Shown here: one piece after another, positions 10,113 to 64,000 of the stretch | Numbering within the stretch: the stretch's first letter is position 1 | Layout of the letters: every line of letters starts with the position of its first letter | Position numbers and translations under genes: made by a program | The notes under the pieces: model-generated | Databases searched by the model: none | Told to the model about the DNA's origin: nothing | Seen by the model: the letters and a program-made list of their open reading frames with translations, nothing else | Sequence record: NZ_CP022047.2 | Length of the DNA stretch: 64,000 bases | Reading direction: 5' to 3' (one strand) | From: a plasmid

Positions 10113-10898
10113 CTATATTGTCATGTCAAAAAATGATTGATTAGAAGCTCTTAATTTTTCTTTTCCAATCAATTTACCTTGGACTATTAATCGATTAGTT
10201 GCTCTTAAATCACTACACGTCACAAGCGTAATCATCTTATCTCCCATTTCATCTTGTATTATATTACCTGATTGAGGACTTACGATTTCTGTTTTTGTCG
10301 TTTTATATGTATATACATATTGTCCATCCGTAACATAAATAGATGAATTTTTAGAAACTTGATGTAAAGGTGTAAATAACAATTCAGGATTTGGCATTGT
10401 ATGTCCTGCTAATGAATAATTGCCCTTACCCATTTGTTGATTTGATTTTAATGTTCCTGCACCTAGCCATAAATTATTGTTAGAAACACCTTCTAATATA
10501 GGTAAGCGCATATTAACACTCGGTATACTAATCTGACCTCTTACATATCTTGTATTTAAAGAAACATCTTTAATATCCATTAAGCGAATAGGTTTTACAT
10601 TCCCAAAGTCATAGGTAATATTTGGGTCTTTTTGATCAGAATTTAATAAGTTATTTTCTAATTGATATTGGTATTTATCTAATACTTGTTGATTCCGTTG
10701 ATAATCGACCGATTTCATCTTTTCAACCTGTTCATATTGCTTACCGAGTTTATGAGGTGCCCAAACCTTATCTATAATTGGTTGATGAAAAACCAACAAT
10801 AAACCAATTATCAATATAATCCCTATTAATAAGCTGTAACCCCACCTTAAAAATCGATTAAAACCATAATTCATCTTTCTTTTTTGTCTTTCAGTCAT
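10113..10898 (-). CDS. Sortase (class B/C-like transpeptidase), probably dedicated to the plasmid LPXTG protein
   Basis: N-terminal TM anchor. 'ITLVTCSD' matches the TLxTC active-site signature, with an upstream 'GHTMPN' His. Confidence 0.7.
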   Translation of the reverse strand: MTERQKRKMNYGFNRFLRWGYSLLIGIILIIGLLLVFHQPIIDKVWAPHKLGKQYEQVEKMKSVDYQRNQQVLDKYQYQLENNLLNSDQKDPNITYDFGNVKPIRLMDIKDVSLNTRYVRGQISIPSVNMRLPILEGVSNNNLWLGAGTLKSNQQMGKGNYSLAGHTMPNPELLFTPLHQVSKNSSIYVTDGQYVYTYKTTKTEIVSPQSGNIIQDEMGDKMITLVTCSDLRATNRLIVQGKLIGKEKLRASNQSFFDMTI

Positions 10899-10902
10899 TG
10901 TT

Positions 10903-11343
10903 TCACGTTCCTTTCATTAATATTATTTGTAAAATGATTATTGTTCCGTTATATAGGCTATGCGTTACCATATTTGTCAAAATTGATTGCGTCTTATGAT
11001 ATAAAGCGCAATATATCAAGCCTGTACAAATTAAAGGTATAAAATTCGTACTTCCATGAATCCATCCAAATATGATGGATACTATTAAAGCCGATAGATA
11101 TATATTAGGTATCCACATTTTAAGAAAACCCCACAACCATTTTCTAAATACCAATTCTTCTATAACAGGTGCTATCAATATGCCAACACTCATTATCCAA
11201 ATATTATTTAAATATTCTTCAGTTCTAGATTTCGTAGAAGTCTTAAATTCAAATCCTAGTTTAGATTGTATGTAGCCAATACTGATTTGAACTAAAAATA
11301 AAAGAATATAAGCAATTAAGCTAAACTGTATTTTACTTTTCAT
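10903..11343 (-). CDS. CPBP/CAAX-type intramembrane protease (Abi family)
   Basis: 'VIEELVFRKWLWG' EExxxR motif and 'FGWIHG' His motif within a polytopic membrane protein. Confidence 0.65.
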   Translation of the reverse strand: MKSKIQFSLIAYILLFLVQISIGYIQSKLGFEFKTSTKSRTEEYLNNIWIMSVGILIAPVIEELVFRKWLWGFLKMWIPNIYLSALIVSIIFGWIHGSTNFIPLICTGLIYCALYHKTQSILTNMVTHSLYNGTIIILQIILMKGT

Positions 11344-11552: not shown

Positions 11553-11559
11553 CCGACTT

Positions 11560-11700: not shown

Positions 11701-11768
11701 CAAAACTTGTTATAATAGAAAAGTCGGTTACTCACTCCGTGCGTTTTCAACATGGAGGAGGTGAGAAC

Positions 11769-11864: not shown

Positions 11865-11869
11865 CCGAC

Positions 11870-14162: not shown

Positions 14163-14271
14163 CCTTCCATTCTAAAATTTGATTTATTATTTGTTTAATA
14201 CTTTCTTAACACGTGCTAAGATATCTTTATTTTTATTGTGTTTGAAATCAGTATGGTTAGTATTTAATTGC

Positions 14272-16194: not shown

Positions 16195-16200
16195 CTATCA

Positions 16201-34395: not shown

Positions 34396-34677
34396 TTAAG
34401 CTTGTTGATGCTTATTTTTTTGTATTTGTTCTGACTGGGCTACATTCTGCCCTGTTTTGTTGTTCGTACCTTTTACATTTTGTAGTACTAGTGATAAGAC
34501 GGCTTCCTTCAAAACATTTTCTCTCCAAGCGTTAAAATATGTTTTATCTTTATCAATGATTTGAAGACGTTTTTCATTCACTACTTGTTCAGCCCAAGTT
34601 TGATAATCAATACCATGTGACTGTACAATTTCTTTCATATCTTTTTCTTTCAATGTTAGATTTATCATATCCATCAT
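34396..34677 (-). CDS. Small hypothetical protein
   Basis: 93-aa ORF whose stop overlaps the adhesin gene. Confidence 0.2.
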   Translation of the reverse strand: MMDMINLTLKEKDMKEIVQSHGIDYQTWAEQVVNEKRLQIIDKDKTYFNAWRENVLKEAVLSLVLQNVKGTNNKTGQNVAQSEQIQKNKHQQA

Positions 34678-37535
34678 CCTTCAGAATTTTTCTTGCGTAA
34701 TTTTAGGAGTGTTAAGCCACCAGCAATTAACACACCACCCATCACAATAAGCCATGTCATCGTCTCAGTACCTGTCTTTGGTAAAACTGATTGAATCATA
34801 TTAGGCTTTTCTTGTGGTGTTTCTTTCACTTGTTGTGGAGCTGATTGCGGTTGTTCAGTTGGTGGTGCAACTTTTTCAGGTTGTTCTTGTGGTGCTTCAG
34901 GTTCAGGATTCTCAGGTGTTGGTTCTTGAGGATCTTTTGGTTCTTCAGGTTTTTCAGGTACTGGTGTTACTTCTTTCTCTTCCTTCGGAACTTTAGTTGT
35001 CACTTGATTAGTTTCCTTCTTCTCCTCATTGACAGTTGAAATTGCGACATTATCTATAATAGATTTTCCATCTTCTTGTTTTAGTTTTGATAAATCAACA
35101 TCTTTTGGAATTGTCACATCTATATCTGTCTCTAAATGACCACCACGATACTTTGTATCAGGCTTTTCATTTTCCCATTTAACAGATGATTTTTCTTCGT
35201 CAATCGTTGATTTCCCTTCTTTTGTCACATCTTCTCTCTTATCCGTATTAGAACCATCCTCATTCACATTTTCTGTGTTTGTGGAAGAATCTAAGTCCGT
35301 TACATCTTTATTTGATTCATTTTCTTCAGTATTTGTAGAACCTTCATCTTGATCTGTCGTTTCATTATTTACGTTCTTTTCTGTTTTAACTGTTTCTTCT
35401 GTATTTAATGATTCTTCATTTTTACCTACATCTTCATTATTTGATGAAGCATCATTCTTGTTTTCTTCATTTTTTGATGACTGATTATCATTATCTTCTG
35501 TATTGGATGATTCTTCCTGATTTTTTTCAGAAGTTATCTTTTTACCACCTAAATAAACTTTCATCCCATCTATTTGTAATACGTCGTTCATGTCATCTTC
35601 AATTTTGATGGCATCTACCTTCTCAGCATTTGGAATATCAGTTTTAATACGGTAAGTGTAGGATTCGCCTGCTTTAACTTCATTTTCTTTTACTTCTTTA
35701 CCTGTATCATCTACAATGACTTTTTCTGTTTTAAAATCAACTTTTTCTAATACTGTCTCTACTTCATTTGAAGGTGTTTCTTTATCCCCTTCCACAATTT
35801 TGATTGTATTAGGTAAAACAAATTGACCGTCTTTCTCATATTCCTTAAGACTAACGTCATCTCTCACCGTCACATCAGCGAGTACCTTAATTTTTTTACC
35901 TGCTAATTTTTTGGGACCTTTAGCAAACCATGAATAAGTATTGGTTTTTTCATCAATTTTTAAATCGCCATCTTTTGTGATTTCTTGATCCTTTTCATCC
36001 ATGACTTTAATGTCATTAATTTTTAAAGGCTTAGTTACTTCATCAATTACACCACGTTTAACATCAGCTTCTTTATTGCCAAATTGTGCAATTTTTTCAT
36101 ACTTAAAAGTATCACCAATTTTAACGTCATTCATATCAACTTTATTACCATTTTGATCAATGATTTTTTTAGTAACAGAAGGTTTAATTGGTTTTGGCGG
36201 TGTTGTCACAACTTCATTCGTATCTTTATCTTTTCCATCTTTATACACTTTAGCTTTATTCAAAATTTGAATTTCACCTTTATCATTTGTAATTTTGGAT
36301 AAGTCAGCATCTTTCTTCAGTTTTACGTCTACTTTAAATTTATAGTCATTCTCATAAAACTCTTTTTTCTTTAAAATGCTTGATTTTGCCTGATAATGAA
36401 GTTTATTTCCTTCAGATTTATTATCAAAGTACTCAGTTGTCACATCTTTGCCTTCTGAATTCGTAATCGTAACTTTTTTAACTTCTAATTCACTATTGAT
36501 ATCGTCTTTAAAACCGTAATCTTTATAGTAGAATTGTTCTTCTTCCGCAGGTACAGTATGTGTAATATCATAATGATAACCTTCATACAATGTATCTAAC
36601 TTGTTTTTCTCTACATCTTTTTCATCTTGGTCAGATACTAATTTAAATGGCTCTAACGTTTCAGTTTTCGCTGGTTTTTCACCATCGTATCCAAAATACT
36701 GTGCATATTGTCCTTCATCCCATTTAATGACTTTATCTTTATTATAATCTGTCCAATCTTTACCCCAACGCATAGATAAGTCATGACTATCACTTAAAAT
36801 TGTAAATTTCGCAAAAGCATCCTTTGGATCTGATAACTCTCCATCAAGTTCTTGGAATCTATGAAAACCGTCTTTATGTTCATAATCAATCCAAGAATCT
36901 TTTGAATGATAGACTTTTGAAATCTTACTCATTTGTTTGTCAGGGAATCCAGCATATTGTTTAGCATCAATATCATTGATGCCCATATATGTTCCAGTGA
37001 TGTCTGTAGCTGGTTTACCTGTATCGTGATAAATTGGTTCCCAGTGGATATCAATCCACTCATACCCAGCTTGTGTAAAGCCAATACCATTCACTTTACT
37101 TCCTGCGAATCGCATATATTGACCACCTTCGAAACCTGCCTCTTTCCAATCAACAACTGTTGCTTTATAGTCAATTTGTTTCCCGTGGTATGTTCCAACA
37201 TTTGTGTAATAAGCCGTCAACTTCCCTTTTTCATCCTTTTTAGGTTCAACCCAAATAGCATTACCAGTTGGTGTTGTCTTTAAAGAGGCTGTTTTAGATA
37301 ATTCTAATTTTGATTTTCCAGTGATCCATTTGGCGATAAAACTATACTTATTACTGATTTCAGAATCTTTACTTGGCACTTCTGCATTTGGTGCTTTTGA
37401 AATTGGTTCAGCTTTCACAATACCTCCGGTACTCATTAGAGATGTACCTAAAATAACACCTGCTGTTGCGGTTTGAAGTTGCCTCATACGCTTTTTATTT
37501 CTATTGTCCTTTAATTGTGTTGTCACCATGTACAA
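34674..37535 (-). CDS. LPXTG-anchored surface adhesin of the conjugation module
   Basis: N-terminal signal peptide. Pro/Glu-rich wall-spanning region. C-terminal 'LPKTG' followed by a hydrophobic stretch and an 'RKKNSEG' tail. Confidence 0.8.
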   Translation of the reverse strand: MYMVTTQLKDNRNKKRMRQLQTATAGVILGTSLMSTGGIVKAEPISKAPNAEVPSKDSEISNKYSFIAKWITGKSKLELSKTASLKTTPTGNAIWVEPKKDEKGKLTAYYTNVGTYHGKQIDYKATVVDWKEAGFEGGQYMRFAGSKVNGIGFTQAGYEWIDIHWEPIYHDTGKPATDITGTYMGINDIDAKQYAGFPDKQMSKISKVYHSKDSWIDYEHKDGFHRFQELDGELSDPKDAFAKFTILSDSHDLSMRWGKDWTDYNKDKVIKWDEGQYAQYFGYDGEKPAKTETLEPFKLVSDQDEKDVEKNKLDTLYEGYHYDITHTVPAEEEQFYYKDYGFKDDINSELEVKKVTITNSEGKDVTTEYFDNKSEGNKLHYQAKSSILKKKEFYENDYKFKVDVKLKKDADLSKITNDKGEIQILNKAKVYKDGKDKDTNEVVTTPPKPIKPSVTKKIIDQNGNKVDMNDVKIGDTFKYEKIAQFGNKEADVKRGVIDEVTKPLKINDIKVMDEKDQEITKDGDLKIDEKTNTYSWFAKGPKKLAGKKIKVLADVTVRDDVSLKEYEKDGQFVLPNTIKIVEGDKETPSNEVETVLEKVDFKTEKVIVDDTGKEVKENEVKAGESYTYRIKTDIPNAEKVDAIKIEDDMNDVLQIDGMKVYLGGKKITSEKNQEESSNTEDNDNQSSKNEENKNDASSNNEDVGKNEESLNTEETVKTEKNVNNETTDQDEGSTNTEENESNKDVTDLDSSTNTENVNEDGSNTDKREDVTKEGKSTIDEEKSSVKWENEKPDTKYRGGHLETDIDVTIPKDVDLSKLKQEDGKSIIDNVAISTVNEEKKETNQVTTKVPKEEKEVTPVPEKPEEPKDPQEPTPENPEPEAPQEQPEKVAPPTEQPQSAPQQVKETPQEKPNMIQSVLPKTGTETMTWLIVMGGVLIAGGLTLLKLRKKNSEG

Positions 37536-41175: not shown

Positions 41176-42690
41176 TCAACTCGAATCAACCTCTATCCTC
41201 TTCCGGTAAAATGCCTCTAATTGTAAGTCTTCTGTGATAATCTGAATGGTTGTATCAATGAATGTACTAGTTTTTGATGATACGCGATGTTTTTTAAACA
41301 CACGATTCAATTTCATTTTCAAATGTGCCGTTGATCTAATACGTTTACCTCTTACTTTTTTCATTGCTTCTTGAATCATTGTTTTTCGTGTTGCTAAATA
41401 CATCACCGCATTTTTCCCTTTAGTTGTATGGCTGTAGAACGTTTGGACGTCTTTTAATAAGGCTTTAAGTGTCGATTTTGACATTCCTAGAGCCTTACAT
41501 AATTCTGTTCTTGTTGTTTTCACAATGCCATTACGCGCATTTTTTTGTATGTATTGATATAAATCTTGTTTCCATTCTGAATAATGAACACGTTGTCTTT
41601 GTTCTCTTGATTTACGATGTTTTCTAAAGAATAATGAATCAACTTTGATACTATGCTTTTCGCACCATGTATATAAAAGCGTCATAATATGCTTTTTTGA
41701 AGCCCCTTTATAACGTCCTGAATAAGCACTATTAACCTTTTCTTCAACCTGTTTGTCATCTAAAGGTCGTTTTAGTTTTTGATTCCATTGATTCATAACA
41801 GCCAAAGCTTCTGACTTATCCATGTTACTCGCATACATATGAAGTGCCATTGTAAAAACAGCATTATCTCTCGCAATAATTCCGTTTCCTTCACCTGCAA
41901 TGTCTGTAGCATTGTATAAGTGATGGAACCATGGCTCATGAATGGATTTTAATTGTTTAAATTGTACTGTTTTAGGTTCATTATACTTATCCTTAAGGGT
42001 TGTTAGTTCAAAGTTCATTGAAAAATCAATCATTGTTTGAAAGTCATAGATATGTTCGTCATTGAAATAGACAACGTTATCATGCCTAGGTACACGGAAG
42101 AAACCGAAATGATTACAATTGATATCAATGCCTTCAATCACTTCGGCATAGTATGTTCTTAAGTTCATTGAAACACGTTTTGCGCGATCTAACCCTAAAT
42201 TAAACGCTTTTTTACCTATATTTTTCATAAAAATAGGCGATTTTAAGTAGAACATAACATGGTAGCCATTTGGGGTATCCATAATGAGCGTTGGTTTAAT
42301 ACCTATGTCGTGTCCTCTCGCAATAATATCTTCTATTGTCACGGTCGCTTTATCTACACCATCTATATCAATCGCAAATACATTTATTTGTTTTAAATTT
42401 GTTTCCAAATGCCCAGCAAACTTACCTTCTTTTGTGTAGTACGCTGAACGAAACACATTTGGTGTCATGTGCGTAATATCATGTCTCATTTCATGAAATG
42501 TTTCAAACGAATCGATAATCTTACCTTCAGTTTTACTTAAATCTTCTTTTGTCTTTGTCACAATAACCTTACCATTTTTAAAAGTACATTTTTTTAAATT
42601 TTTATTATGCATATTATCATTTCTTGATAAACCATTATGTAACATACCATCAAAAATTGCTTGATCACGTGACTTTTTATTTTTAACCAT
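41176..42690 (-). CDS. Theta-replication initiator of the Inc18 RepR/RepE/RepS family (Prim-Pol-like N-terminal domain)
   Basis: 'HMTPNVFRS..YTKEG..NLKQINVFAIDIDG', 'NGYHVMFYL', 'NHFGFFRVPRHDNVVYF' and 'EQRQRVHYSEWKQDL' closely parallel conserved blocks of pIP501 RepR and pAMbeta1 RepE. Confidence 0.75.
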   Translation of the reverse strand: MVKNKKSRDQAIFDGMLHNGLSRNDNMHNKNLKKCTFKNGKVIVTKTKEDLSKTEGKIIDSFETFHEMRHDITHMTPNVFRSAYYTKEGKFAGHLETNLKQINVFAIDIDGVDKATVTIEDIIARGHDIGIKPTLIMDTPNGYHVMFYLKSPIFMKNIGKKAFNLGLDRAKRVSMNLRTYYAEVIEGIDINCNHFGFFRVPRHDNVVYFNDEHIYDFQTMIDFSMNFELTTLKDKYNEPKTVQFKQLKSIHEPWFHHLYNATDIAGEGNGIIARDNAVFTMALHMYASNMDKSEALAVMNQWNQKLKRPLDDKQVEEKVNSAYSGRYKGASKKHIMTLLYTWCEKHSIKVDSLFFRKHRKSREQRQRVHYSEWKQDLYQYIQKNARNGIVKTTRTELCKALGMSKSTLKALLKDVQTFYSHTTKGKNAVMYLATRKTMIQEAMKKVRGKRIRSTAHLKMKLNRVFKKHRVSSKTSTFIDTTIQIITEDLQLEAFYRKRIEVDSS

Positions 42691-49960: not shown

Positions 49961-50275
49961 TTATTTCTTTTTCTTTAAAGCCTTTTTTAATTTATAGTCA
50001 TTTTCTTGTTCAATAATTAACTTTAGTTTTTCTTGTTCACTTTTACCAATTTGATTTATATATAAGTTAAGTGCCTCTTCTAAAATGTTATCATAGGAAT
50101 CTTCTAGTTGAATTTTTTTAAGGGCTAATATCTTACTATGTGTTGCTCCCTTAACCCTCAATGTTGTTTGAGGTAAAGTCATTTCTTTTTCCTGTTGTGT
50201 TATTAATGTATTATCAAATTTTGATTGTGTTGTTTCGTTTGTATTTAATAAAGATTGTTTTTTCATTTGTATCAT
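49961..50275 (-). CDS. Ribbon-helix-helix ParG-like partition adaptor/centromere-binding protein
   Basis: 'TTLRVKGATHSKILALK' beta-strand-helix start. Its stop overlaps parA. Confidence 0.4.
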   Translation of the reverse strand: MIQMKKQSLLNTNETTQSKFDNTLITQQEKEMTLPQTTLRVKGATHSKILALKKIQLEDSYDNILEEALNLYINQIGKSEQEKLKLIIEQENDYKLKKALKKKK

Positions 50276-52250: not shown

Positions 52251-53264
52251 ATGTCAACTAAATCAACATCTTATAGAAGTGTCAGAAAATCAAAGTTTAC
52301 TCAAATTTCAAATCAACTATTAAATGATGAAGAACTTACATTAGAGTCAAAAGCATTATTATCAATTTTTTTATCTAATTCTGATAATTGGGAACTCCAT
52401 ATGTCTGAAATTATAAAACGTTCTAAAAATGGACGTGATGCTCATTATTCAGCGCTTAAAAAATTAATAATTGCTGGTTATATCGCACGCTTAGAATTTA
52501 AGCAAAATATTAACAACCAGTTTGTGAAACTTGAATACATATTTAGTGATAGTAAAGAAGACATATGGCAAGGAATAGAGGAAGCTAAAGTAATTGCTAA
52601 AGAAAATAATCAATCTATCGTACTTACGTATAAAAACATAAGCTGTGAAAAAATAGATACTAATAATGACTTAAACCCGTATCCGGAATTCCAGTATACG
52701 GAGGAATCTAATCCCAAAATTCCGTTTACTGAAAATCCGGATGCGGCTAATACGAATACGGAAATTGCGAATACAGAAAATCAGTATATAAATAATACTA
52801 ATATAAATAATACTAATAAAAAAAATACTAATATAAATAATGGAATGAATGGAGTGAGTGCTATTAAAAATTCCTATCAAAAATCACAACAATCAATCCA
52901 TTCAATCCAAAATGATAACAATTATTTAATTGATGAACAAAAACATTTATTAAAACTATTACCTCAAGACCTTCAAGAATTTGTCAAAACACGATATACA
53001 TTAGAAGATAGTATTAATATAATCAATAAAATTATACAAGCTAAAAGAGCGGCAGGGGATAGACGTAATGATAATTTATTTTTCTATTTTGAACACAACA
53101 ACGATCTATCAGAAGCCATCATTGAAATACTAATTTCTGTAAACAGAGAAATGAAAAAGAAAAGAGAATCTGTGGAATCAATGCTAGGATACTACTATAA
53201 TGCATTAGTCAATGGATTGGAAGAATTTCATTTTACAATGGAAGCTAGAAAAAATATGAAATAG
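52251..53264 (+). CDS. RepA_N-family plasmid replication initiator
   Basis: N-terminal 'KFTQISNQLLND..LTLESKALLSIFLSN' is typical of Firmicute RepA_N initiators. Asn-rich linker. C-terminal host-specificity domain. Confidence 0.8.
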   Translation: MSTKSTSYRSVRKSKFTQISNQLLNDEELTLESKALLSIFLSNSDNWELHMSEIIKRSKNGRDAHYSALKKLIIAGYIARLEFKQNINNQFVKLEYIFSDSKEDIWQGIEEAKVIAKENNQSIVLTYKNISCEKIDTNNDLNPYPEFQYTEESNPKIPFTENPDAANTNTEIANTENQYINNTNINNTNKKNTNINNGMNGVSAIKNSYQKSQQSIHSIQNDNNYLIDEQKHLLKLLPQDLQEFVKTRYTLEDSINIINKIIQAKRAAGDRRNDNLFFYFEHNNDLSEAIIEILISVNREMKKKRESVESMLGYYYNALVNGLEEFHFTMEARKNMK

Positions 53265-53621: not shown

Positions 53622-53954
53622 ATGAAAGTAGAAGAGTTTATAGAATATGAGTTGCACAGAAAAATTTTCCTTACTCCTATAAAAGATAATTATCAACTAA
53701 CAAGAGATGAGTTACTTTTACTTGGTATTTTTCAGAAATTTGATTACATTAATGAAGTTTACCTAACCGATTTTATTTATTTAGCAAACAAGTATCAACT
53801 TCATTACACAAAACCATTAAAATCATTAGCTAGTAAAAATTTTTTTAAGAAAAAGAGACTTATTGAAGATGAACGCACAGTCATTCTATATGATATAAAT
53901 TATAGGAAGATAAATGATATATTTAATCATATTAATTCAGAAATTTTCAATTAG
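53622..53954 (+). CDS. Small MarR-like winged-helix protein (paralogue A)
   Basis: 110 aa. 'LTRDELLLLGIF...LIEDERTVILYDI' HTH-wing pattern. Paralogue of 56402..56752. Confidence 0.35.
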   Translation: MKVEEFIEYELHRKIFLTPIKDNYQLTRDELLLLGIFQKFDYINEVYLTDFIYLANKYQLHYTKPLKSLASKNFFKKKRLIEDERTVILYDINYRKINDIFNHINSEIFN

Positions 53955-54921: not shown

Positions 54922-55470
54922 TTAAGCACAACGAATAATATCAGTTAACATTTCTCCAACAAGCTTTTTTCTTTTCTCGACGTCTACACTATTTTCTTTA
55001 ATAAAAATATATGATTGTTCTGCGGCGTGCTCAATTGTTCCTACAATAATTTGTGCTTTTAAATTAGTAGAGGTATCTTTTTTACTAAATAGTAATTCTT
55101 CTACACGATCATAAAACTTAGAATAGATACTTTCCCACTCATTTAAATTTCCACTTCCAATAAATGAATGATATAACGATTCAATAATATCTTTATTTTT
55201 TTTATTATAGTTAAATATCACTTCTATAATGTTATTAATAGTTTTTGACTTATCCTTATTATAGGGGATTTCATTTAGTTCATTAACCATCTCGTCTAAA
55301 ATGACGCTTGCAAAGTATGAAACTAAATCTAATTTTGAATCAAAATAGGTATAAAATGTTCCTTTACCAAATCCAGCATCATCAACGATGTCAGATACAT
55401 TCATTTTATGAAAACCTTTAGTTATTAATAAATGTTGTGCGGATTTAACTAGCTTATCTTTTGTGTACAA
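54922..55470 (-). CDS. TetR-family transcriptional regulator (paralogue A)
   Basis: N-terminal HTH 'LITKGFHKMNVSDIVDDAGFGKGTFYTYFDSK'. Confidence 0.75.
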   Translation of the reverse strand: MYTKDKLVKSAQHLLITKGFHKMNVSDIVDDAGFGKGTFYTYFDSKLDLVSYFASVILDEMVNELNEIPYNKDKSKTINNIIEVIFNYNKKNKDIIESLYHSFIGSGNLNEWESIYSKFYDRVEELLFSKKDTSTNLKAQIIVGTIEHAAEQSYIFIKENSVDVEKRKKLVGEMLTDIIRCA

Positions 55471-55717: not shown

Positions 55718-56056
55718 ATGAAAAATCCATGGTTTTATGTTTTTCTTACATGTGTACTAGAAGTTGTATGGGTTTTTGGTTTTAATGTTGCTAACACTTG
55801 GTGGCATTGGATTCCCATTGTTTTAGTTATTGTAGTTGATTTTTATTTATTATCTAAGGCTTGTGAAAGTTTACCAACGGGTACAGTGTATGCTGTGTTT
55901 GCAGGTGCTGGAACGGTTGGAACTGTCTTAATGGATACATTTATTTTCAATAGTACGATGACATTTTCTAAGTTATTTTTTATTTCTTTAGTAGTATTAG
56001 GTGTTATTTTTCTAAAGCTTTTAGATAATTCTAATGAATCGGAGGTAGTAAAGTAA
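55718..56056 (+). CDS. SMR-family small multidrug-resistance protein, subunit 1 of a paired pump
   Basis: 112 aa with four TM helices. EmrE/YkkC-like. Confidence 0.65.
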   Translation: MKNPWFYVFLTCVLEVVWVFGFNVANTWWHWIPIVLVIVVDFYLLSKACESLPTGTVYAVFAGAGTVGTVLMDTFIFNSTMTFSKLFFISLVVLGVIFLKLLDNSNESEVVK

Positions 56057-56371
56057 ATGGGATGGATATTGGTTATACTAGCTGCACTATTTGAAGTAGT
56101 AGGAATAATTGGTTTGAAAAAATTTAGTAGTGAAAAAAACTTAAATAATGGAATTCTTCTGTTTGTAGGTTTTATTGGCTCTTTAACACTATTGTATTCT
56201 GCTTTTAATTATATACAAATGAGTATTGCTTATTCTGTATGGGTAGGTATTGGAACAGCATCAGCTGTAGTTTTAAATATGGTTTTCTTTAATGAACCTA
56301 AAAATATGGGAAGAATTTTAAGCCTTATATTAATAATTATAGGAGTCGTAGGACTAAAAGCTGTTTCTTAA
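56057..56371 (+). CDS. SMR-family small multidrug-resistance protein, subunit 2
   Basis: 104 aa with four TM helices. 'FEVVGIIGLK' carries the conserved Glu in TM1. Adjacent to subunit 1 with no gap. Confidence 0.65.
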   Translation: MGWILVILAALFEVVGIIGLKKFSSEKNLNNGILLFVGFIGSLTLLYSAFNYIQMSIAYSVWVGIGTASAVVLNMVFFNEPKNMGRILSLILIIIGVVGLKAVS

Positions 56372-56401: not shown

Positions 56402-56752
56402 GTGGAAGACTTCATAAAGTATGAATTAAATAGAAAACTATATATCAATAAAATAGAAAATAGTTTTGATATCAATAGAGAAGAGCTATTGATACTGTCG
56501 ATTATTAAAGAAATAAATAGTGATAAGATATATTTAAGTGAATTGTTATATCATATAAATAAGTACAATTTATACTATACTAAACATTTAAAATCACTTA
56601 GAAAAAAGAATTACTTTACCAAAAAAAGATTACCTGAAGATGAAAGATCTGTTATTATACAAGATATTAACTATGAAAAAATTGAAGATTTATTTGACGA
56701 TATTTATTCAATAGTATTTGATACAAATGAAAAAAATGACAAAAGGACGTAA
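56402..56752 (+). CDS. Small MarR-like winged-helix protein (paralogue B)
   Basis: 116 aa. Aligns along its length with 53622..53954 ('EELLILSII...LPEDERSVIIQDI'). Confidence 0.35.
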   Translation: MEDFIKYELNRKLYINKIENSFDINREELLILSIIKEINSDKIYLSELLYHINKYNLYYTKHLKSLRKKNYFTKKRLPEDERSVIIQDINYEKIEDLFDDIYSIVFDTNEKNDKRT

Positions 56753-56799: not shown

Positions 56800-57366
56800 T
56801 TAAAGTTGGATATTTTTAGATAATTCGTAAACAACGGCTTTCCTTTTTTTTATATGTTCATCACTTTCATTTAAAAATATATAGCCTTGTTCAGCAGAAT
56901 ATTCTATCATTCCAACTACTGTTTGAGTTTTTATCAATGTCTCTTTACTATATTCTTCGAATAATAATTTTTCTATACAAGAATAAAACTTTCTATACAT
57001 ATTTTCCCATTCATTTAAATTACTAGTTCCCATATAAGAATGAAATAAGGCTTTAATAATTTCACTGTTTTTTCTATTATTTTCAAAGATTATTTCAATA
57101 ATCTGAAATAGAGTTTCTGATTGGTTGCTATTATAATTTAATTTTTCAAGTTCTGTGATCATGTCATCCAAGATACTATTTGCAAAATATCCAATTAATT
57201 CATTCTTAGATTTAAAGTATGTGTAGAAAGTTCCTTTACCAAAACCAGCTTCATGGGATATATCAGAAACATTCATGTTGTGGAAACCATTCGTTATTAG
57301 CAAGTTTTTTGCTGATTCAACTATCTTTTCTTTTGTACTCAATATATACACCTCCAATTTAATCAA
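56800..57366 (-). CDS. TetR-family transcriptional regulator (paralogue B)
   Basis: 'LITNGFHNMNVSDISHEAGFGKGTFYTYFKSK' is near-identical in its HTH to paralogue A. Confidence 0.75.
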   Translation of the reverse strand: MIKLEVYILSTKEKIVESAKNLLITNGFHNMNVSDISHEAGFGKGTFYTYFKSKNELIGYFANSILDDMITELEKLNYNSNQSETLFQIIEIIFENNRKNSEIIKALFHSYMGTSNLNEWENMYRKFYSCIEKLLFEEYSKETLIKTQTVVGMIEYSAEQGYIFLNESDEHIKKRKAVVYELSKNIQL

Positions 57367-57552: not shown

Positions 57553-58353
57553 GTGTGCTTCGTGTCTGTTATTACAATTGGAAACTTTAAAGGTGGAGTA
57601 GGTAAAACAACTGTTTCAACATTACTATCTTATATAGCATCAGAAAGATATGATAAAAAAGTTTTACTGATTGATTTTGATCCTCAAGGAAATGCTACTC
57701 AAATTATGAAAAGAACATATCCGGAAGCCTTAGAAGAAACAAAAAGTTTTATTGAGACTCTAAAGTCAGGTGAATTAAGTGAAAGCATGATAAATTTATC
57801 AAATAATCTTTCTCTGCTACCTGCTGATTCTTCATTAGCTAATTTATCGGATATAATTGCAAAAACTGACATTGTAAAAAAAAGATATATACTTAAAACA
57901 GTTATTGATCAAATTAAAATAGACTATAATTTTGATTACATTTTCATCGATGTTCCACCAACTATAAATTCAGATTTTACTAATAATGCTGTATATGCAA
58001 GTGACTATATTGCAATGGTATTTCAAACACAACAATCAGCATATGAAAGTAGTTTGTCTTTTGTAAACTTTTTACGGGATAGAAAAAAAGAGTCCAATCT
58101 ACCCTTTGAATTAATTGGTGCTATACCAGTACTAATTAAGAGAAATGGAAAAATTGATGAACAAATTTTAAAAATATCTAAAGAAACCTTTTCAAATGCT
58201 CTTTTCAAAAACCAGATATTTCAAAGAGAAAGAATCAAGAAATTCGGTGCAGAAGGTATCAGGGACAAAGATACACATGATAAGAGAGTACTACATATGC
58301 TTGAAGAAATTTATATAGAGCTTATTGAAAGAATAGAACTCATTGAAGGATAG
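57553..58353 (+). CDS. parA: ParA/Soj-family partition ATPase, second cassette
   Basis: 'GNFKGGVGKTTVST' deviant Walker A. The start may instead be the GTG at 57562, which has SD 'AGAGGTG'. Confidence 0.8.
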   Translation: MCFVSVITIGNFKGGVGKTTVSTLLSYIASERYDKKVLLIDFDPQGNATQIMKRTYPEALEETKSFIETLKSGELSESMINLSNNLSLLPADSSLANLSDIIAKTDIVKKRYILKTVIDQIKIDYNFDYIFIDVPPTINSDFTNNAVYASDYIAMVFQTQQSAYESSLSFVNFLRDRKKESNLPFELIGAIPVLIKRNGKIDEQILKISKETFSNALFKNQIFQRERIKKFGAEGIRDKDTHDKRVLHMLEEIYIELIERIELIEG

Positions 58354-59977: not shown

Positions 59978-60664
59978 ATGAACAAGTTTTTTGCTGAGTT
60001 ATTTGGTACGTTTATTTTGGTATTTTTTGGTACGGGAACAGCTGTGATGACTGTTTTAAATCCAGAAAATAATGTTGGACATCTAGGCATAGCAATAGCG
60101 TTTGGTTTAACGATCGTTGCTGCTTGCTATAGTATTGGCCATATTTCAGGAGGGCACTTAAACCCTGCTATTTCTTTGGCAATGTATATGGACAAAAGAA
60201 TTAATTTAAAAACATTGATAGGTTACATGATTTTTCAAATAATTGGAGCAATTATAGCTACAACAATCATTTGGATAATTTTACATACAACAAATATAAA
60301 TGTCTCTAATTATACTTATGGACAAAATACGTTAGGATCTTTAAATGTATTAGGGGCTTTGTTGACTGAATTTATATTAAGTACAGTATTCATATTCGTT
60401 GTTTTAAGTGTGACAAAAGAAAGTTTTACTTCTTCAAATATTGCAGTCTTAATCATTGGTTTAACATTAACTTTAGTACATTTAATAGGAATTCCGTTAA
60501 CTGGTACATCTGTTAACCCAGCAAGAAGTATAGGGCCTGCTATTTTTGCTCAAGATAATGCTTTAAAAGAGTTGTGGATTTTTATATTAGCACCATTATT
60601 AGGAGCAATATGTGCGACATTCTTACATAAGTCATTTGAAAATAAAGGTTATAAAAACAAGTAA
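59978..60664 (+). CDS. MIP-family channel (aquaporin/glycerol-facilitator-like)
   Basis: Two NPA boxes ('GGHLNPAIS' and 'SVNPARS') and six TM helices. Confidence 0.85.
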   Translation: MNKFFAELFGTFILVFFGTGTAVMTVLNPENNVGHLGIAIAFGLTIVAACYSIGHISGGHLNPAISLAMYMDKRINLKTLIGYMIFQIIGAIIATTIIWIILHTTNINVSNYTYGQNTLGSLNVLGALLTEFILSTVFIFVVLSVTKESFTSSNIAVLIIGLTLTLVHLIGIPLTGTSVNPARSIGPAIFAQDNALKELWIFILAPLLGAICATFLHKSFENKGYKNK

Positions 60665-60711
60665 CGGAATCGTTACTTGTTTTTACAACATAAGGGAGGG
60701 TTTTATTAATA

Positions 60712-61034
60712 TGAATCTTAAACAAATTAAAAATTATCTTGATTATATGGAAAAAATTGAAAAGGAAATATTGAAAGAGTTTGGCATCGATTTAAATGAT
60801 TTAAAGATTATATTAATCATTTCAAATAATAACAATACTATTTCTAAAGTTGAAGCATATAAACACAGTAATTTAAAGGTAAGTGCATTTAATATTCATG
60901 TAAAAAAACTTTATAAGTTAGGTTATATTCATAAAGAGCGAGATGTGGTTGATGAAAGAACTTTAATATTATCCACAAATCAAAAACTAGTTAACAAAAT
61001 AGAAGAAAGATTTAATCTAATAAAGCGTCTTTAA
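60712..61034 (+). CDS. Small MarR-like regulator
   Basis: Start at 'MNLKQIKNYL' with SD 'AAGGGAGG'. HTH-like 'ISKVEAYKHSNLKVSAFNIHVKKLYKLGYIHKERDVVDER'. The track's 60612 start overlaps the aquaporin 3' end and is unlikely. Confidence 0.35.
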
Positions 61035-62533
61035 CTATTATTTAATTTATATAGTATATCTTTCCACTTATTTAATATATTTTTATAGGAAAATTGATTG
61101 GACTCATGAACGCTATTATCTCTTAACTTTTGTTGTAGTGTACTATCCTCTAAAAAGAACTTAACTTTTTCGTATAATTCTTCTTCATTATTTTTGTCAA
61201 TCAAAAATCCATTAATATTATTTTTGATCATTTCTCTAGGGCCATATGCAATGTCATAACTTATAACAGGTACACCATTAGATAAGGACTCTAATATTGC
61301 TAATGAGAATCCCTCCATATTACTAGTAATTAGGCTCAAATGAGAGGATTTCATTTCTTCTGTTAAATCTGATATAAACCCCCTAAATTTAACATATTCT
61401 TTTAAATCCATTGCTTCTACAAGGTCTTTTAGCTTATTTTGTTCACTTCCATAACCAAATAAGTGGAGTTCTATTTCTTTAAAATCATTTTTTAATTTTG
61501 AAATCAAACGTATTTGATGATCTAGTTGTTTTTCAGGTGAATATCGTGCTATTGAAATCATTTTAAATGGTTTGTCTGGAACAGGAGCTATCTCAATTGC
61601 ATGCTCTTCCTTATATCCAACTGGAATATTGTATACAGGAATTGAAGATGCAATTCTTTTATTTAAATCTATTTTTTGTTGTTCAGTAGAAACAATTATT
61701 GCAGAAAATCGATCGAGATTTTCAAAAACGGATTTATATATATTTTTAGTATTTGAATACTCAATATTATCATTATCTTTAACATGTGTACTATGTAATA
61801 CAGCAACTACAGGTATCTCCTTATTTATCATTAAAAATGGTGGAGAAGTATCAGCAGTTTTATCACTAAAATATATATCACCTTTTTCATACAATTCCTC
61901 ATAGAAAAATGAAACAAATTCATCATGAGTATTAAAATAGTAAGTCCTATTTTTAAATTCATTTAAAATAATCATCGTTAAATCATTTTTATCTGATCCA
62001 GTATCATAATATTTTTCTATTTTAACGTCTCCATTAGTATTAAAAAATTCTTCGTGAAGTACTCTTTGGTTTTCAGTAAGATATTTCGTACAACTAATAA
62101 AGCCTCTTATATCATACAAATCTCTCTTGATTTTTCTGCCCTTAAGATCAAAATGGTTAATATAGTTGATAAATTTGTAATTGTCATCATAAAAGTTAAC
62201 GTACATAATTTTTCTTCCATTAGAGAATATCCTTATATCATTAGTATCTGCTATATATTTAATTTCAAATCTATCTTCATAAATCCATTTAGATATCCAA
62301 TTAGGTATTGTATTTAGTTCAATATGTATTGTTTCTTGAAAGTAATCATAGATGGAAAATATGTCTTTATTAACACCAAATACTCCAGCATTGCCTGTTA
62401 ATCGAGGATTCCAAGTTAAAGTTATGATTTTAGAATGAAGTAGTTCTTGATCAAAAAGTTTAAACCTATTAATTACAGCTTTTTCTATTCCAGTTAATTT
62501 TTCGCCTATATTATTAATTACAAAATAATACAT
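61031..62533 (-). CDS. GT4-family glycosyltransferase of the TarM/SdgA/SdgB/GtfA type (N-terminal DUF1975-like domain)
   Basis: C-terminal 'EGFSLAILESLSNGVPVISYDIAYGPREMIKNNINGFLI' parallels TarM 'EGQGLSMIEAMISKRPVVAFDIKYGPSDFIEDNKNGYLI'. 500 aa. Confidence 0.65.
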   Translation of the reverse strand: MYYFVINNIGEKLTGIEKAVINRFKLFDQELLHSKIITLTWNPRLTGNAGVFGVNKDIFSIYDYFQETIHIELNTIPNWISKWIYEDRFEIKYIADTNDIRIFSNGRKIMYVNFYDDNYKFINYINHFDLKGRKIKRDLYDIRGFISCTKYLTENQRVLHEEFFNTNGDVKIEKYYDTGSDKNDLTMIILNEFKNRTYYFNTHDEFVSFFYEELYEKGDIYFSDKTADTSPPFLMINKEIPVVAVLHSTHVKDNDNIEYSNTKNIYKSVFENLDRFSAIIVSTEQQKIDLNKRIASSIPVYNIPVGYKEEHAIEIAPVPDKPFKMISIARYSPEKQLDHQIRLISKLKNDFKEIELHLFGYGSEQNKLKDLVEAMDLKEYVKFRGFISDLTEEMKSSHLSLITSNMEGFSLAILESLSNGVPVISYDIAYGPREMIKNNINGFLIDKNNEEELYEKVKFFLEDSTLQQKLRDNSVHESNQFSYKNILNKWKDILYKLNNS

Positions 62534-62829
62534 GTTATATCCTCCTGATTGTAAAACTTGGAAATCAGTTAATTATTGCTGAATGCCTTCTTTCCACTAT
62601 TTATACCATAAGTTTAAGCTATTTGTGAAATTAGATATCAGAACTACAATGCAGCTATTTTTAATGTAATTAATATTTTTTATATTTATTATTTAACTAA
62701 ATTTAATAATTTAATTAAATAATATGACTGAATATTAGTCAGATTTTCCCGTTTAATTTATATTTATTTCCCACGATTACTAGTGTATAATTCTCCTAGA
62801 TTTATATTAAATAAATAAGAGGTGTTAAA

Positions 62830-64000
62830 GTGGGGAAATTCAAAAAGCAAAGATTTGCGATTAGAAAATTCACTATGGGTATAGGTTCCGTTTTACTAGG
62901 ATTCACTATATTTTCTGTAGCCCATACTAGTGAAGCTAAGGCAAATGAAAGTGAAAAGGATTATATTTTAAAGCAGTCATCATCTACGGGTGCAGAAGAT
63001 GAAACTTCTGAGACAAAAGAATTAGAAGTAACGGGAAATAATGATGGTGTAAAATCACAAGAAGCAACTAATGATAATAATCAACCTATTGCTGAAGAAC
63101 AAAATGTTAGTCAAGAAGATAGTCCAACTAATGATTTGAATGACAATATCTCAGAAGAAGTGAATACTGAGGAATCTAACTCTGAGATAGAGGTAAATTC
63201 AGACAGTGAAACATCTGATTCTGATAAAGAAAAATTAGATTCAGACAGTGAAGCATCTGATTCTGATAAAGAAGAATTAGATTCAGACAGTGAAGCATCT
63301 GATTCTGATAAAGAAGAATTAGATTCAGATAGTGAAGCATCTGATTCTGATAAAGAAAAATTAGATTCAGATAGTGAAGCATCTGATTCTGATAAAGAAA
63401 AATTAGATTCAGATAGTGAAGCATCTGATTCTGATAAAGAAGAATTAGATTCAGACAGTGAAGCATCTGATTCTGATAAAGAAGAATTAGATTCAGACAG
63501 TGAAGCATCTGATTCTGATAAAGAAGAATTAGATTCAGATAGTGAAGCATCTGATTCTGATAAAGAAGAATTAAATTCAGACAGTGAAGCATCTGATTCT
63601 GATAAAGAAATATCAGATTCAGAGTCTGAGGCAATTGATTTAGCAAAACAAAAAGCAAAAGAAAAAGAAAAAAATGAATTAAAAGCAAAAGAAAAATCAC
63701 TTAAAGCTGTAAAAGCAGCTCCAGACCCATATCATGAAGTATCAAAAAAGTATTGGGGTGGTATTCTTGGGTTCTTCGGTAATAATGGTTTTACTGGAGA
63801 TATAGCAGCCGAGAAAAATTCATATGTAATTGGTGAAAATGTAAAAGCTAAAGGTGAATTTAAAAAAGCCGGACTTATTAATACTGATAAAGTTACTTAT
63901 CAGTGGTATATGTATAAAGATGGCAACTGGGTAATTCTTAGTGGTCAAACGAGTGATACTTTAACATATAAGCCAACAACTGAAGGAGAATATTGGTTCC
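62830..64000 (+). CDS. Secreted surface protein with a YSIRK-type signal peptide and N-terminal acidic Ser/Asp tandem repeats (3' end beyond the window)
   Basis: GTG start with SD 'AGAGGTG'. 'KKQRFAIRKFTMGIGSVLLG' YSIRK-G/S motif and 'AHTSEAKA' cleavage region. About 10 copies of 'DSDSEASDSDKEEL' follow. There is no stop before 64000. Confidence 0.7.
   Translation, partial: MGKFKKQRFAIRKFTMGIGSVLLGFTIFSVAHTSEAKANESEKDYILKQSSSTGAEDETSETKELEVTGNNDGVKSQEATNDNNQPIAEEQNVSQEDSPTNDLNDNISEEVNTEESNSEIEVNSDSETSDSDKEKLDSDSEASDSDKEELDSDSEASDSDKEELDSDSEASDSDKEKLDSDSEASDSDKEKLDSDSEASDSDKEELDSDSEASDSDKEELDSDSEASDSDKEELDSDSEASDSDKEELNSDSEASDSDKEISDSESEAIDLAKQKAKEKEKNELKAKEKSLKAVKAAPDPYHEVSKKYWGGILGFFGNNGFTGDIAAEKNSYVIGENVKAKGEFKKAGLINTDKVTYQWYMYKDGNWVILSGQTSDTLTYKPTTEGEYWF
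63190..63620 (+). repeat. 42-bp coding tandem repeats (~10 copies) encoding a 14-aa acidic SD-containing unit
   Basis: 'gattcagacagtgaagcatctgattctgataaagaagaatta' iterated with minor variants (acagt/atagt, gaagaa/gaaaaa). Confidence 0.85.

What the first reader, a model, noticed from the sequence alone, without database searches (positions are those of the whole stretch)
61031..64000. Divergent TarM/SdgB-like glycosyltransferase next to a YSIRK surface protein with N-terminal acidic Ser-Asp tandem repeats
The 500-aa GT4 enzyme shares the catalytic C-terminal block with TarM, and by family with SdgA/SdgB/GtfA, which GlcNAc-ylate Ser-Asp or Ser-rich repeats of staphylococcal adhesins. Directly divergent from it is a surface protein with a YSIRK-G/S signal peptide followed by ~10 copies of the 14-aa unit DSDSEASDSDKEEL (42-bp DNA repeats). 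The folded domain lies after the repeats, the reverse of the Sdr/Clf architecture, where SD repeats are C-terminal. This pairing suggests a plasmid-borne dedicated adhesin and glycosylation cassette of an undescribed architecture. Repeat-number variation is likely through slippage.
Basis: partly seen in the sequence, partly recalled or inferred. Interest (0 to 1): 0.6.

Follow-up and report, generated by a model that had tools for sequence, protein, structure and literature searches.

The report
Plasmid surface glycoprotein with SdgB-like glycosyltransferase
A conjugative plasmid of the animal-skin bacterium Mammaliicoccus sciuri carries a repeat-rich surface protein gene back-to-back with a sugar-adding enzyme of the staphylococcal SdgB family. 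This is a new variation on the known pairing of an adhesin with its own glycosylation enzyme, not a new kind of system.

Summary
A 500-aa GT4 glycosyltransferase (61031-62533, minus strand) lies divergent from a YSIRK-signal surface protein (62830 to beyond 64000). That protein carries 10 near-identical 14-aa units, consensus DSDSEASDSDKEEL (42-bp array, 63197-63623).

- **Enzyme family:** it is an SdgB-family enzyme, not a TarM orthologue. Identity is 47% to S. aureus SdgB and 40% to SdgA. The PDB E-value is 1e-148 for SdgB and about 1e-19 for S. aureus TarM. Donor and catalytic residues are conserved.
- **Architecture:** the "reversed architecture" claim is incomplete. A 97%-identical M. sciuri relative shows three Ig-like domains after the N-terminal repeats, then a long C-terminal Ser-Glu-rich stalk (SESISESESISESLSTSE...). 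Homologues about 50% identical on S. xylosus plasmids end in LPNTG, but they are followed by gtfA-gtfB instead.
- **Conservation:** the GT-adhesin pairing is kept in five contigs, down to 78% GT identity.

Most likely the enzyme O-GlcNAcylates serines in the neighbour's acidic repeats before Sec export. The conserved C-terminal stalk is the likelier main target. The window's N-terminal array, which holds 18 DSD motifs, is a possible extra target.

This is a new variant of a known kind (sdr-sdgAB, pls-gtfCD, sesJ-gtfAB, UafB). Interest is moderate.

The parts
60612..61034 (+). SarA/Rot-family winged-helix regulator. The ORF is 140 aa from GTG 60612 or 107 aa from ATG 60711. It is convergent with the GT gene, and the two stop codons overlap (TTAA at 61031-61034).
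   Evidence: Pfam Staph_reg_Sar_Rot at E 7e-11 and TIGR01889 at E 8e-13, which is below its cut-off. A gene is called at this position in relatives L001, L010, L011 and L012. A role in regulating the cassette is inferred only.
61031..62533 (-). SdgB-family GT4 glycosyltransferase, 500 aa, cytoplasmic (no signal peptide).
   Evidence: NCBIfam glyco_SdgB 622 bits (cut-off 800), SdgA 514 bits, GtfA 131 bits. PDB SdgB 7EC1/7EC7 at E 1e-148, aligned over residues 1-493. 47% identical to SdgB, 40% to SdgA and 24% to GtfA. Of 15 donor/catalytic residues, 13 are identical and 2 are conservative; 8 of 12 acceptor-groove residues are identical. The exact sequence is ASE35721.1/WP_088592813.1 of Mammaliicoccus sciuri.
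62534..62829 (.). AT-rich 296-bp divergent intergenic region, presumed to hold promoters for both genes.
   Evidence: It is 100% identical in L001, 96% in L011 and L012, and 90% in L010. The promoter scan was uninformative: 17 sites found against 18.8 expected.
62830..64000 (+). Surface protein, 5' part only (390 aa); it runs off the window.
   Evidence: Translation. YSIRK hits. The 97%-identical relative L010 shows 799 aa.
62830..62943 (+). YSIRK-G/S type signal peptide (residues 1-38, predicted cleavage after AKA).
   Evidence: Pfam PF04650 at 31.9 bits (cut-off 20) and TIGR01168 at 30.7 bits (cut-off 20.2).
63196..63615 (+). Ten tandem 14-aa acidic units (consensus DSDSEASDSDKEEL). The visible 390 aa hold 18 DSD motifs, all in or at the edge of this array.
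   Evidence: TRF: period 42, 10.2 copies, 96% matches, score 770. Unit list and motif counts. DNA units.
63616..63714 (+). Charged Lys/Glu-rich linker (DSESEAIDLAKQKAKEKEKNELKAKEKSLKAVK).
   Evidence: The linker is conserved in L014 and P0002.
63715..64000 (+). Start of the folded region: the first of three Ig-like domains, with a YQWY motif.
   Evidence: Weak Pfam Y_Y_Y hit. The full region in L010 gives Y_Y_Y, Big_2 and Ig_2 hits. It is 50-52% identical to YSIRK/LPNTG proteins on S. xylosus plasmids. The domain recurs many times in large repeat proteins.

Best explanation
This is a mobile adhesin-glycosylation cassette on a conjugative Mammaliicoccus sciuri plasmid. The surface protein is exported through the general Sec pathway by its YSIRK signal peptide. 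By homology it has the order: signal peptide, acidic N-terminal repeats, three Ig-like domains, a long C-terminal Ser-Glu-rich stalk and (inferred) an LPXTG anchor. The divergently transcribed cytoplasmic enzyme is a member of the SdgB/SdgA family that uses UDP-GlcNAc. It most likely O-GlcNAcylates serines flanked by acidic residues in the neighbour's disordered repeats before export. By analogy with SdgB and with GtfC/D, this would protect the repeats from proteases and change surface, biofilm and antigenic properties.

The conserved C-terminal stalk is the more probable main substrate. The window's N-terminal DSDSEASDSDKEEL array matches the known minimal SdgB acceptor (DSD) and may be modified as well.

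Shown here: gene anatomy, family assignment, residue conservation and conserved linkage. Inferred: the sugar, the acceptor sites, the anchor, the presence of the C-terminal stalk in this exact plasmid, and the role of the Sar-family regulator.
For: Family assignment. The catalytic and UDP-GlcNAc-contacting residues named in the SdgB structure paper (PMC8561734 section 3.4) are conserved: G15, H246, R329, K334, E406-A411 and E414. SdgB modifies a minimal DSD peptide (PMC8561734 section 3.1), and the window's N-terminal array holds 18 DSD motifs.

The same divergent GT-adhesin arrangement occurs in L001, L010, L011, L012 and L014. In L014 the GT is only 78.5% identical and the adhesin folded region 82% identical, which points to co-inheritance as a unit.

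L010 shows a C-terminal SESISESESISESLSTSE stalk after the Ig-like region. Homologous S. xylosus plasmid proteins have the same layout, end in LPNTG, and are followed by the glycosylation genes gtfA-gtfB. This adhesin family therefore travels with a glycosylation module.

Precedents are sdrCDE-sdgAB, pls-gtfCD on SCCmec (PMC5230774) and sesJ-gtfAB on ACME/SCC (PMC7029136). An S. epidermidis plasmid carries an adhesin with N-terminal repeats and C-terminal SD repeats next to an SdgB-like GT.
Against: There is no biochemical evidence. The window does not show the protein's C-terminal half, so the stalk and the anchor are inferred from relatives. The enzyme scores below NCBI's SdgB cut-off (622 against 800 bits). 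Three acceptor-groove residues that are conserved in SdgB, SdgA and the S. epidermidis plasmid enzyme are changed in every M. sciuri-lineage copy: Y103F, F108K and R132G. Acceptor specificity may therefore differ from DSD. Nothing I read shows an SdgB-family enzyme acting on Ser-Glu repeats. In S. aureus SdgB also acts in trans on unlinked ClfA and ClfB, so adjacency does not prove a dedicated pairing. No SdgA-like second enzyme lies in the visible 64 kb.
Confidence: 0.6

Rival explanations
1. The N-terminal DSDSEASDSDKEEL array is the dedicated and principal substrate of the GT, which would define a 'reversed' Sdr-type architecture.
For: DSD is the minimal SdgB acceptor. The array holds 18 DSD motifs and lies in the gene directly divergent from the GT gene.
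Against: The sister lineage L014 keeps the GT with identical groove residues, but its N-terminal unit is QEEATDSEETTSKAA/QEDTTDSEESTSEAD with only 2 DSD motifs. In L010, D-to-N changes cut the DSD count from 18 to 12, so there is no sign of selection to keep the motif. The protein also has a C-terminal Ser-rich stalk. N-terminal repeats in Aap, SesJ and the S. epidermidis plasmid adhesin are not SD-type.
Confidence: 0.15
2. The GT works mainly in trans on other Ser-Asp repeat proteins of the host, chromosomal or on the plasmid, and its position next to this gene is incidental linkage on a mobile element.
For: S. aureus SdgA and SdgB modify unlinked ClfA and ClfB as well as the neighbouring Sdr proteins, and they also modify Pls (PMC5230774).
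Against: The linkage persists down to 78% GT identity, with similar divergence of both genes. The homologous adhesin in S. xylosus also keeps an adjacent glycosylation module, of another family. I could not survey M. sciuri chromosomes for SD-repeat proteins.
Confidence: 0.12
3. The enzyme is a TarM-type wall teichoic acid glycosyltransferase, or otherwise acts on a non-protein acceptor.
For: It shares the GT4 fold and the inserted domain with TarM and hits it weakly: E 1e-19 for S. aureus TarM and 1e-24 for TarM(Se).
Against: SdgB hits at E 1e-148 over the full length, against 1e-19 to 1e-24 for TarM. NCBIfam ranks SdgB and SdgA far above everything else. No teichoic-acid genes lie nearby.
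Confidence: 0.03

Closest known systems
S. aureus SdgB/SdgA with SdrC/D/E, ClfA and ClfB (Hazenbos 2013; structures 7EC1 and 7VFL, PMC8561734)
   Same: Same GT4 subfamily. The alignment to SdgB covers the full length, including the inserted acceptor-binding/dimerization domain, at 47% identity. Catalytic and UDP-GlcNAc residues are conserved. The gene lies next to a YSIRK surface-protein gene whose product carries DSD motifs.
   Different: There is a single enzyme; no SdgA-like partner was seen in 64 kb. Three groove residues are changed (Y103F, F108K, R132G). The partner is not an MSCRAMM. Its DSD motifs sit in 14-aa N-terminal units rather than a long C-terminal (SD)n region, and the C-terminal stalk seen in the relative is Ser-Glu type. 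The cassette is plasmid-borne in Mammaliicoccus.
SesJ/SdrI N-terminal-repeat MSCRAMM subfamily with adjacent gtfA-gtfB (PMC4850167, PMC7029136)
   Same: The layout matches: signal peptide, 12-15-aa acidic N-terminal repeats, folded region, acidic Ser-containing C-terminal repeats, then an anchor. Both are encoded on a mobile element next to glycosyltransferase genes.
   Different: The folded region here is built of Y_Y_Y/Big_2/Ig_2-type domains. It has no TYTFTDYVN trench motif and no B repeats. There is one GT of the Sdg family rather than two GTs downstream.
Uncharacterised YSIRK/LPNTG proteins on S. xylosus plasmids NZ_CP066727 and NZ_CP060272 (fragments also in S. equorum and S. gallinarum), followed by gtfA-gtfB
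   Same: They are true homologues: the three-domain folded region is 50-52% identical. The order is the same (N-terminal repeats, Ig-like region, C-terminal SES(L/I)SES stalk), and they are plasmid-borne.
   Different: Their N-terminal unit is a 27-aa sequence without DSD. The glycosylation module is GtfA/GtfB placed downstream, not an SdgB-like enzyme placed divergently.
Serine-rich repeat glycoproteins SraP and UafB (UafB was recalled from memory as plasmid-encoded in S. saprophyticus; only its citation was seen in PMC4893552), and the S. lentus SRRP-like protein with GtfA/B but no accessory Sec system (PMC4893552)
   Same: A long Ser-rich stalk, a cell-wall anchor and dedicated cytoplasmic O-glycosylation, with the genes found on mobile DNA.
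   Different: Here there is a YSIRK signal instead of the long KxYKxGKxW-type signal. No secA2, secY2 or asp genes and no GtfA/GtfB were found in the window. The GT belongs to the Sdg family.
Pls with GtfC/GtfD on SCCmec (PMC5230774)
   Same: A surface protein on a mobile element with its own glycosyltransferases, which add HexNAc to Ser in acidic repeats. Glycosylation affects biofilm formation.
   Different: Pls is a G5-E protein with C-terminal SD repeats. It has two GTs that are transcribed convergently downstream.

Membership tests
SdgB/SdgA family of SD-repeat adhesin O-GlcNAc transferases | Full-length homology, including the inserted domain between the two Rossmann halves | tested here: met
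   PDB SdgB at E 1e-148, residues 1-493 aligned with a single 1-residue gap. 47% identical to SdgB and 40% to SdgA.
SdgB/SdgA family of SD-repeat adhesin O-GlcNAc transferases | Score above NCBIfam's curated SdgB or SdgA cut-off (800 bits) | tested here: not met
   622 bits for SdgB and 514 bits for SdgA. NCBI names the protein only 'glycosyltransferase'.
SdgB/SdgA family of SD-repeat adhesin O-GlcNAc transferases | UDP-GlcNAc-binding and catalytic residues (G15, H246, R329, K334, E406-A411, E414, etc.) | tested here: met
   13 of 15 are identical. Y358F and L386I are conservative changes.
SdgB/SdgA family of SD-repeat adhesin O-GlcNAc transferases | Positively charged SD-peptide groove (R101, Y103, F108, Y111, Y124, N126, F128, R132, K134, R137) | tested here: inconclusive
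   8 of 12 listed residues are identical. Y103F, F108K and R132G are shared by all four M. sciuri-lineage enzymes but are not found in SdgB, SdgA or the S. epidermidis plasmid GT.
SdgB/SdgA family of SD-repeat adhesin O-GlcNAc transferases | Paired SdgA-like second enzyme | tested here: not met
   tblastn of SdgA, SdgB, GtfA and GtfB against the window finds only this one gene. The roughly 26 kb of plasmid outside the window could not be examined.
SdgB/SdgA family of SD-repeat adhesin O-GlcNAc transferases | GlcNAc transfer to Ser in DSD motifs | not testable with these tools
   This needs an enzyme assay or glycoproteomics.
TarM (WTA alpha-GlcNAc transferase) | Closest homology to TarM | tested here: not met
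   TarM scores E 1e-19 to 1e-24, against 1e-148 for SdgB.
Accessory-Sec GtfA/GtfB | TIGR02918 equivalog score and a GtfB partner | tested here: not met
   131 bits against a cut-off of 574.6. No GtfB homologue lies in the window.
Clf/Sdr MSCRAMM | N2N3 DEv-IgG A-domain with the TYTFTDYVD trench motif, and a C-terminal (SD)n R region | tested here: not met
   The motif is absent from the window protein, L010 and the S. xylosus homologues. NCBIfam MSCRAMM hits cover only the signal-peptide region. The folded region gives Y_Y_Y, Big_2 and Ig_2 hits. The relative's C-terminal repeats are SESISES, not SD.
SesJ-type N-terminal-repeat subfamily | N-terminal repeats together with C-terminal acidic Ser repeats, LPXTG and an MSCRAMM A-region | tested here: not met
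   N-terminal repeats are present. C-terminal repeats are seen only in relative L010. LPNTG is seen only in the S. xylosus homologues. The MSCRAMM A-region is absent. The layout is similar, but the protein is not a member.
Serine-rich repeat glycoproteins (SraP, GspB, UafB) | Long specialised signal peptide and an accessory Sec locus | tested here: not met
   The signal peptide is the YSIRK type, there is no KxYKxGKxW motif, and no secA2, secY2 or asp genes appear among the window ORFs.
YSIRK-G/S signal peptide proteins | Pfam PF04650 or TIGR01168 above the cut-off | tested here: met
   31.9 bits (cut-off 20) and 30.7 bits (cut-off 20.2).
LPXTG cell-wall-anchored proteins | C-terminal LPXTG, hydrophobic span and a positively charged tail | not testable with these tools
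   The window ends at residue 390, and L010 ends inside the stalk. The homologues in S. xylosus and in L015 end with LPNTG, a hydrophobic span and RRRRKK.

The most novel reading that the evidence does not exclude
The M. sciuri-lineage enzyme may be an SdgB-family transferase whose acceptor groove has been remodelled (Y103F, F108K, R132G). Under this reading its specificity has shifted from (SD)n to Ser-Glu-type serine-rich stalks, to mixed DSDSEASDSD units, or to both. Homologous adhesins would then have swapped between two unrelated glycosylation systems, GtfA/GtfB in S. xylosus and Sdg-type in Mammaliicoccus. That would make the glycosylation module an exchangeable part of mobile adhesin cassettes.
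Probability: 0.3. Interest if true: 0.55.

Novelty: new variant of a known kind. Interest (0 to 1): 0.38.

Why it matters
Glycosylation of repeat regions by SdgB-type enzymes protects staphylococcal adhesins from host proteases and creates dominant antibody epitopes. On Pls, glycosylation by GtfC/GtfD promotes biofilm formation. A conjugative plasmid that carries both an adhesin and its modifying enzyme could transfer a ready-made glycosylated surface structure between Mammaliicoccus and Staphylococcus strains in animals and food environments.

The comparison with the S. xylosus homologues offers a natural experiment on how glycosyltransferase specificity matches repeat sequence. None of this overturns current understanding. 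It extends a known theme to a new protein family, host and enzyme-substrate combination.

Tried and rejected
- **Megablast against PLSDB.** The region and the tra region gave no close plasmid. The source plasmid is not in that collection.
- **The search for homologous proteins.** All three searches were unproductive. The 390-aa query was swamped by low-complexity words. The 102-aa and 301-aa folded-region queries returned only the fragment P0002.
- **Exact-DNA scan of metagenomes** with the window's last 48 nt found nothing.
- **Attempts to reach the C-terminus and downstream genes of the surface protein.**
  - Logan contigs break inside the 42-bp array.
  - The NCBI contig L010 breaks inside the C-terminal stalk.
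  - Look-ups of genes at the window start reached only about 0.9 kb beyond the window, and that stretch encodes unrelated small proteins.
  - The viral-contig scan gave only a distant Ig-like hit.
- **Promoter scan** of the divergent spacer was no better than shuffled sequence.
- **SxsA of S. xylosus** was considered as a possible name for the homologue. The paper is not held. From memory SxsA is a core-genome protein, so it is probably a different protein; this is unverified.
- **The antisense ORF 63176..63700** (174 aa) was rejected as an artefact of the repeat.
- **TarM, GtfA and MSCRAMM assignments** were rejected (see the membership tests).


Full report
**1. What is there**

The minus-strand ORF 61031..62533 encodes a 500-aa protein with a C-terminal Glycos_transf_1 domain. 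A 296-bp AT-rich spacer separates it from a plus-strand ORF. That ORF starts at GTG 62830, preceded by AAGAGGTG, and runs off the window end with 390 aa visible.

The plus-strand product has these parts:
- It begins MGKFKKQRFAIRKFTMGIGSVLLGFTIFSVAHTSEAKA. This passes the Pfam and TIGRFAM YSIRK signal models.
- An acidic non-repetitive stretch follows.
- Next come ten 14-aa units (NSDSETSDSDKEKL, then DSDSEASDSDKE(E/K)L, ending NSDSEASDSDKEIS) at residues 123-262.
- These units are encoded by a 42-bp array that Tandem Repeats Finder scores at 770, with 96% matches.
- A Lys/Glu-rich linker leads into a folded region that starts at AAPDPYHEV.

The 174-aa antisense ORF 63176..63700 is a by-product of the repeat.

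**2. Source and context**

The exact GT sequence is ASE35721.1/WP_088592813.1 of Mammaliicoccus (formerly Staphylococcus) sciuri, on an 89,775-bp contig. The window is 30% G+C. It encodes a T4SS coupling protein, a MobL relaxase, a topoisomerase, a CHAP/glucosaminidase hydrolase, a primase, two ParA-like proteins, a second LPXTG protein resembling antigen I/II, and a sortase. It is therefore a conjugative plasmid. PLSDB holds no close relative.

**3. The enzyme**

NCBIfam ranks SdgB first (622 bits), then SdgA (514 bits). GtfA (131 bits) and everything else score far lower. The SdgB score is below NCBI's strict 800-bit cut-off.

Against solved structures, S. aureus SdgB (7EC1, 7EC7) scores E 1e-148 and aligns over residues 1-493 with one single-residue gap. 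By comparison, streptococcal Gtf1/GtfA scores about 1e-30 and TarM scores 1e-19 to 1e-24.

Identities:

| Compared with | Identity |
|---|---|
| S. aureus SdgB | 47% |
| S. aureus SdgA | 40% |
| SdgB-like GT on an S. epidermidis plasmid | 47% |
| S. xylosus GtfA | 24% |
| (SdgB against SdgA, for scale) | 44% |

I used the residues named in the SdgB structure paper (PMC8561734).
- **Donor and catalysis:** 13 of 15 residues are identical and two changes are conservative.
- **SD-peptide groove:** 8 of 12 residues are identical.
- **Lineage-specific changes:** Y103F, F108K and R132G occur in all four M. sciuri-lineage enzymes. SdgB, SdgA and the S. epidermidis plasmid enzyme keep Y, F and R at these positions.

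The enzyme is therefore a divergent member of the Sdg branch. It is not a TarM orthologue, and its acceptor specificity may be altered.

**4. The surface protein beyond the window**

Contigs carrying this GT or a 98%-identical one were recovered. The Logan contigs break in the 42-bp array. NCBI contig JAMWMD010000008.1 (L010) is 97% identical at the DNA level and reads 799 aa of the protein. L010 shows, in order:
- the same signal peptide;
- ten 14-aa units;
- the linker;
- about 300 aa giving Y_Y_Y, Big_2 and Ig_2 hits;
- a Ser-Glu-rich repeat (SESISESESISESLSTSE...) that runs off the contig.

tblastn found homologues 50-52% identical on two S. xylosus plasmids. They are 1828 and 2396 aa long. 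Each has a YSIRK signal, six or seven 27-aa acidic N-terminal units and the same three-domain region. Each then has a SESLSESESLSTSE stalk of about 1200 or 1800 aa, followed by LPNTG, a hydrophobic span and RRRRKK. Both are followed by gtfA and gtfB.

Fragments of the same protein exist in S. equorum and S. gallinarum. A metagenome contig (L015) repeats the S. xylosus arrangement.

The "reverse of Sdr/Clf" reading is therefore incomplete. The family has repeats at both ends, a layout already described for the SesJ/SdrI subfamily (PMC4850167). An S. epidermidis plasmid adhesin also shows it, with N-terminal SSAQDKATTEQ repeats, C-terminal SD repeats and LPETG, next to an SdgB-like GT.

The protein is not an MSCRAMM: it has no TYTFTDYVD motif and no SdrG-type hits. 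It is not a classical SRRP either: the signal is YSIRK, not KxYKxGKxW, and no accessory Sec genes are present.

**5. Linkage**

The divergent GT-adhesin arrangement recurs in L001 (identical), L010, L011 and L012. It also recurs in metagenome contig L014, where the GT is only 78.5% identical and the folded region 82% identical. The two genes have therefore diverged together as a unit. A SarA/Rot-family regulator gene is convergent with the GT gene in all contigs long enough to show it.

**6. Which repeats are the substrate?**

SdgB glycosylates a minimal DSD peptide (PMC8561734), and the window's N-terminal array supplies 18 DSD motifs. Three observations argue against it being the conserved substrate:
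- L014 keeps the same GT groove, but its N-terminal unit is QEEATDSEETTSKAA/QEDTTDSEESTSEAD, with two DSD motifs in all.
- L010 has lost six DSD motifs through D-to-N changes.
- Of the 14 amino-acid differences between the window and L010, 11 fall inside the array.

The N-terminal repeats are thus the fastest-evolving part. The C-terminal Ser-Glu stalk is shared across M. sciuri and S. xylosus, and a glycosylation module accompanies it in both.

I conclude that the stalk is the likelier main target and that this plasmid's N-terminal array is a plausible additional target. Both points are inferences. No experiment bears on them, and nothing I read shows an Sdg-family enzyme acting on Ser-Glu repeats.

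**7. Comparison with the known, and novelty**

Adhesin-plus-glycosyltransferase cassettes, including ones on mobile elements, are established:
- sdrCDE-sdgAB;
- pls-gtfCD on SCCmec (PMC5230774);
- sesJ-gtfAB on ACME/SCC (PMC7029136);
- SRRP-type proteins with GtfA/B in S. lentus. UafB is cited in the same paper (PMC4893552); that it is plasmid-borne in S. saprophyticus is from memory.

What is new here:
- a specific, uncharacterised adhesin family (YSIRK, variable N-terminal repeats, three Ig-like domains, Ser-Glu stalk);
- its pairing in Mammaliicoccus with a single divergent Sdg-family enzyme whose groove is altered;
- the contrast with its S. xylosus homologues, which pair with GtfA/GtfB.

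No paper in the library mentions SdgB together with sciuri. I rate this a new variant of a known kind, of moderate interest.

**8. Limits**

The C-terminal half of the protein in this plasmid was not seen, nor were its anchor and whatever lies downstream. Several attempts to reach them failed. Copy-number variation of the 14-aa array could not be shown, because both readable M. sciuri copies have ten units. The S. xylosus homologues do vary in both repeat regions.

Noticed in passing
window 10113-37535: The conjugation module carries its own surface machinery. A sortase gene (10113..10898, minus strand) sits next to a CPBP-type membrane protease-like ORF (10903..11343, minus strand). A 953-aa LPKTG protein with an antigen I/II C2-like domain lies at 34674..37535 (minus strand), recalling the PrgB-type aggregation adhesins of enterococcal plasmids. 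The plasmid sortase could also anchor the repeat protein studied here.
   Followed up: partly
window 53622-53954, 56402-56752, 60612-61034: Three SarA/Rot-family paralogues lie within 8 kb on the plasmid. They are interleaved with two TetR-family genes (54922..55470 and 56800..57366) and a pair of small multidrug-resistance genes (55718..56371).
   Followed up: partly
window 61031-61034: The stop codons of the convergent GT and Sar-family regulator genes overlap in the sequence TTAA, so the two transcripts must overlap at their 3' ends.
   Followed up: no
window 60648-60689: A 19-pair hairpin followed by a T-run lies between the aquaporin-like MIP gene (59978..60664) and the regulator gene. 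It falls inside the longer (140-aa) reading of the regulator ORF, which favours the 107-aa start at 60711.
   Followed up: no
window 50272-51066 and 57553-58353: Two ParA-like partition ATPase genes sit on opposite strands, each with a small downstream ORF. There are also two candidate replication or primase genes (41176..42690 and 52251..53264). This suggests a cointegrate or multi-replicon plasmid.
   Followed up: no
L007 (NZ_CP134836.1) 9001-17195: An S. epidermidis 25-kb mobilizable plasmid carries a 1633-aa adhesin with 11-aa N-terminal repeats, a long SD region and LPETG. It lies next to an SdgB-like GT (54% identical to SdgB) and a second 538-aa protein annotated as poly(glycerol-phosphate) alpha-glucosyltransferase, which has no Pfam GT hit.
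   Followed up: partly
L006 (NZ_CP060272.1) 4895-7363: Just upstream of the S. xylosus homologue lies a CBASS-type pair: a DncV-like nucleotidyltransferase and a SAVED-domain protein.
   Followed up: no
window 25365-27896: An 843-aa membrane protein in the transfer region has a C-terminal half that is long, low in complexity and rich in Gln, Ser, Thr and Lys.
   Followed up: no
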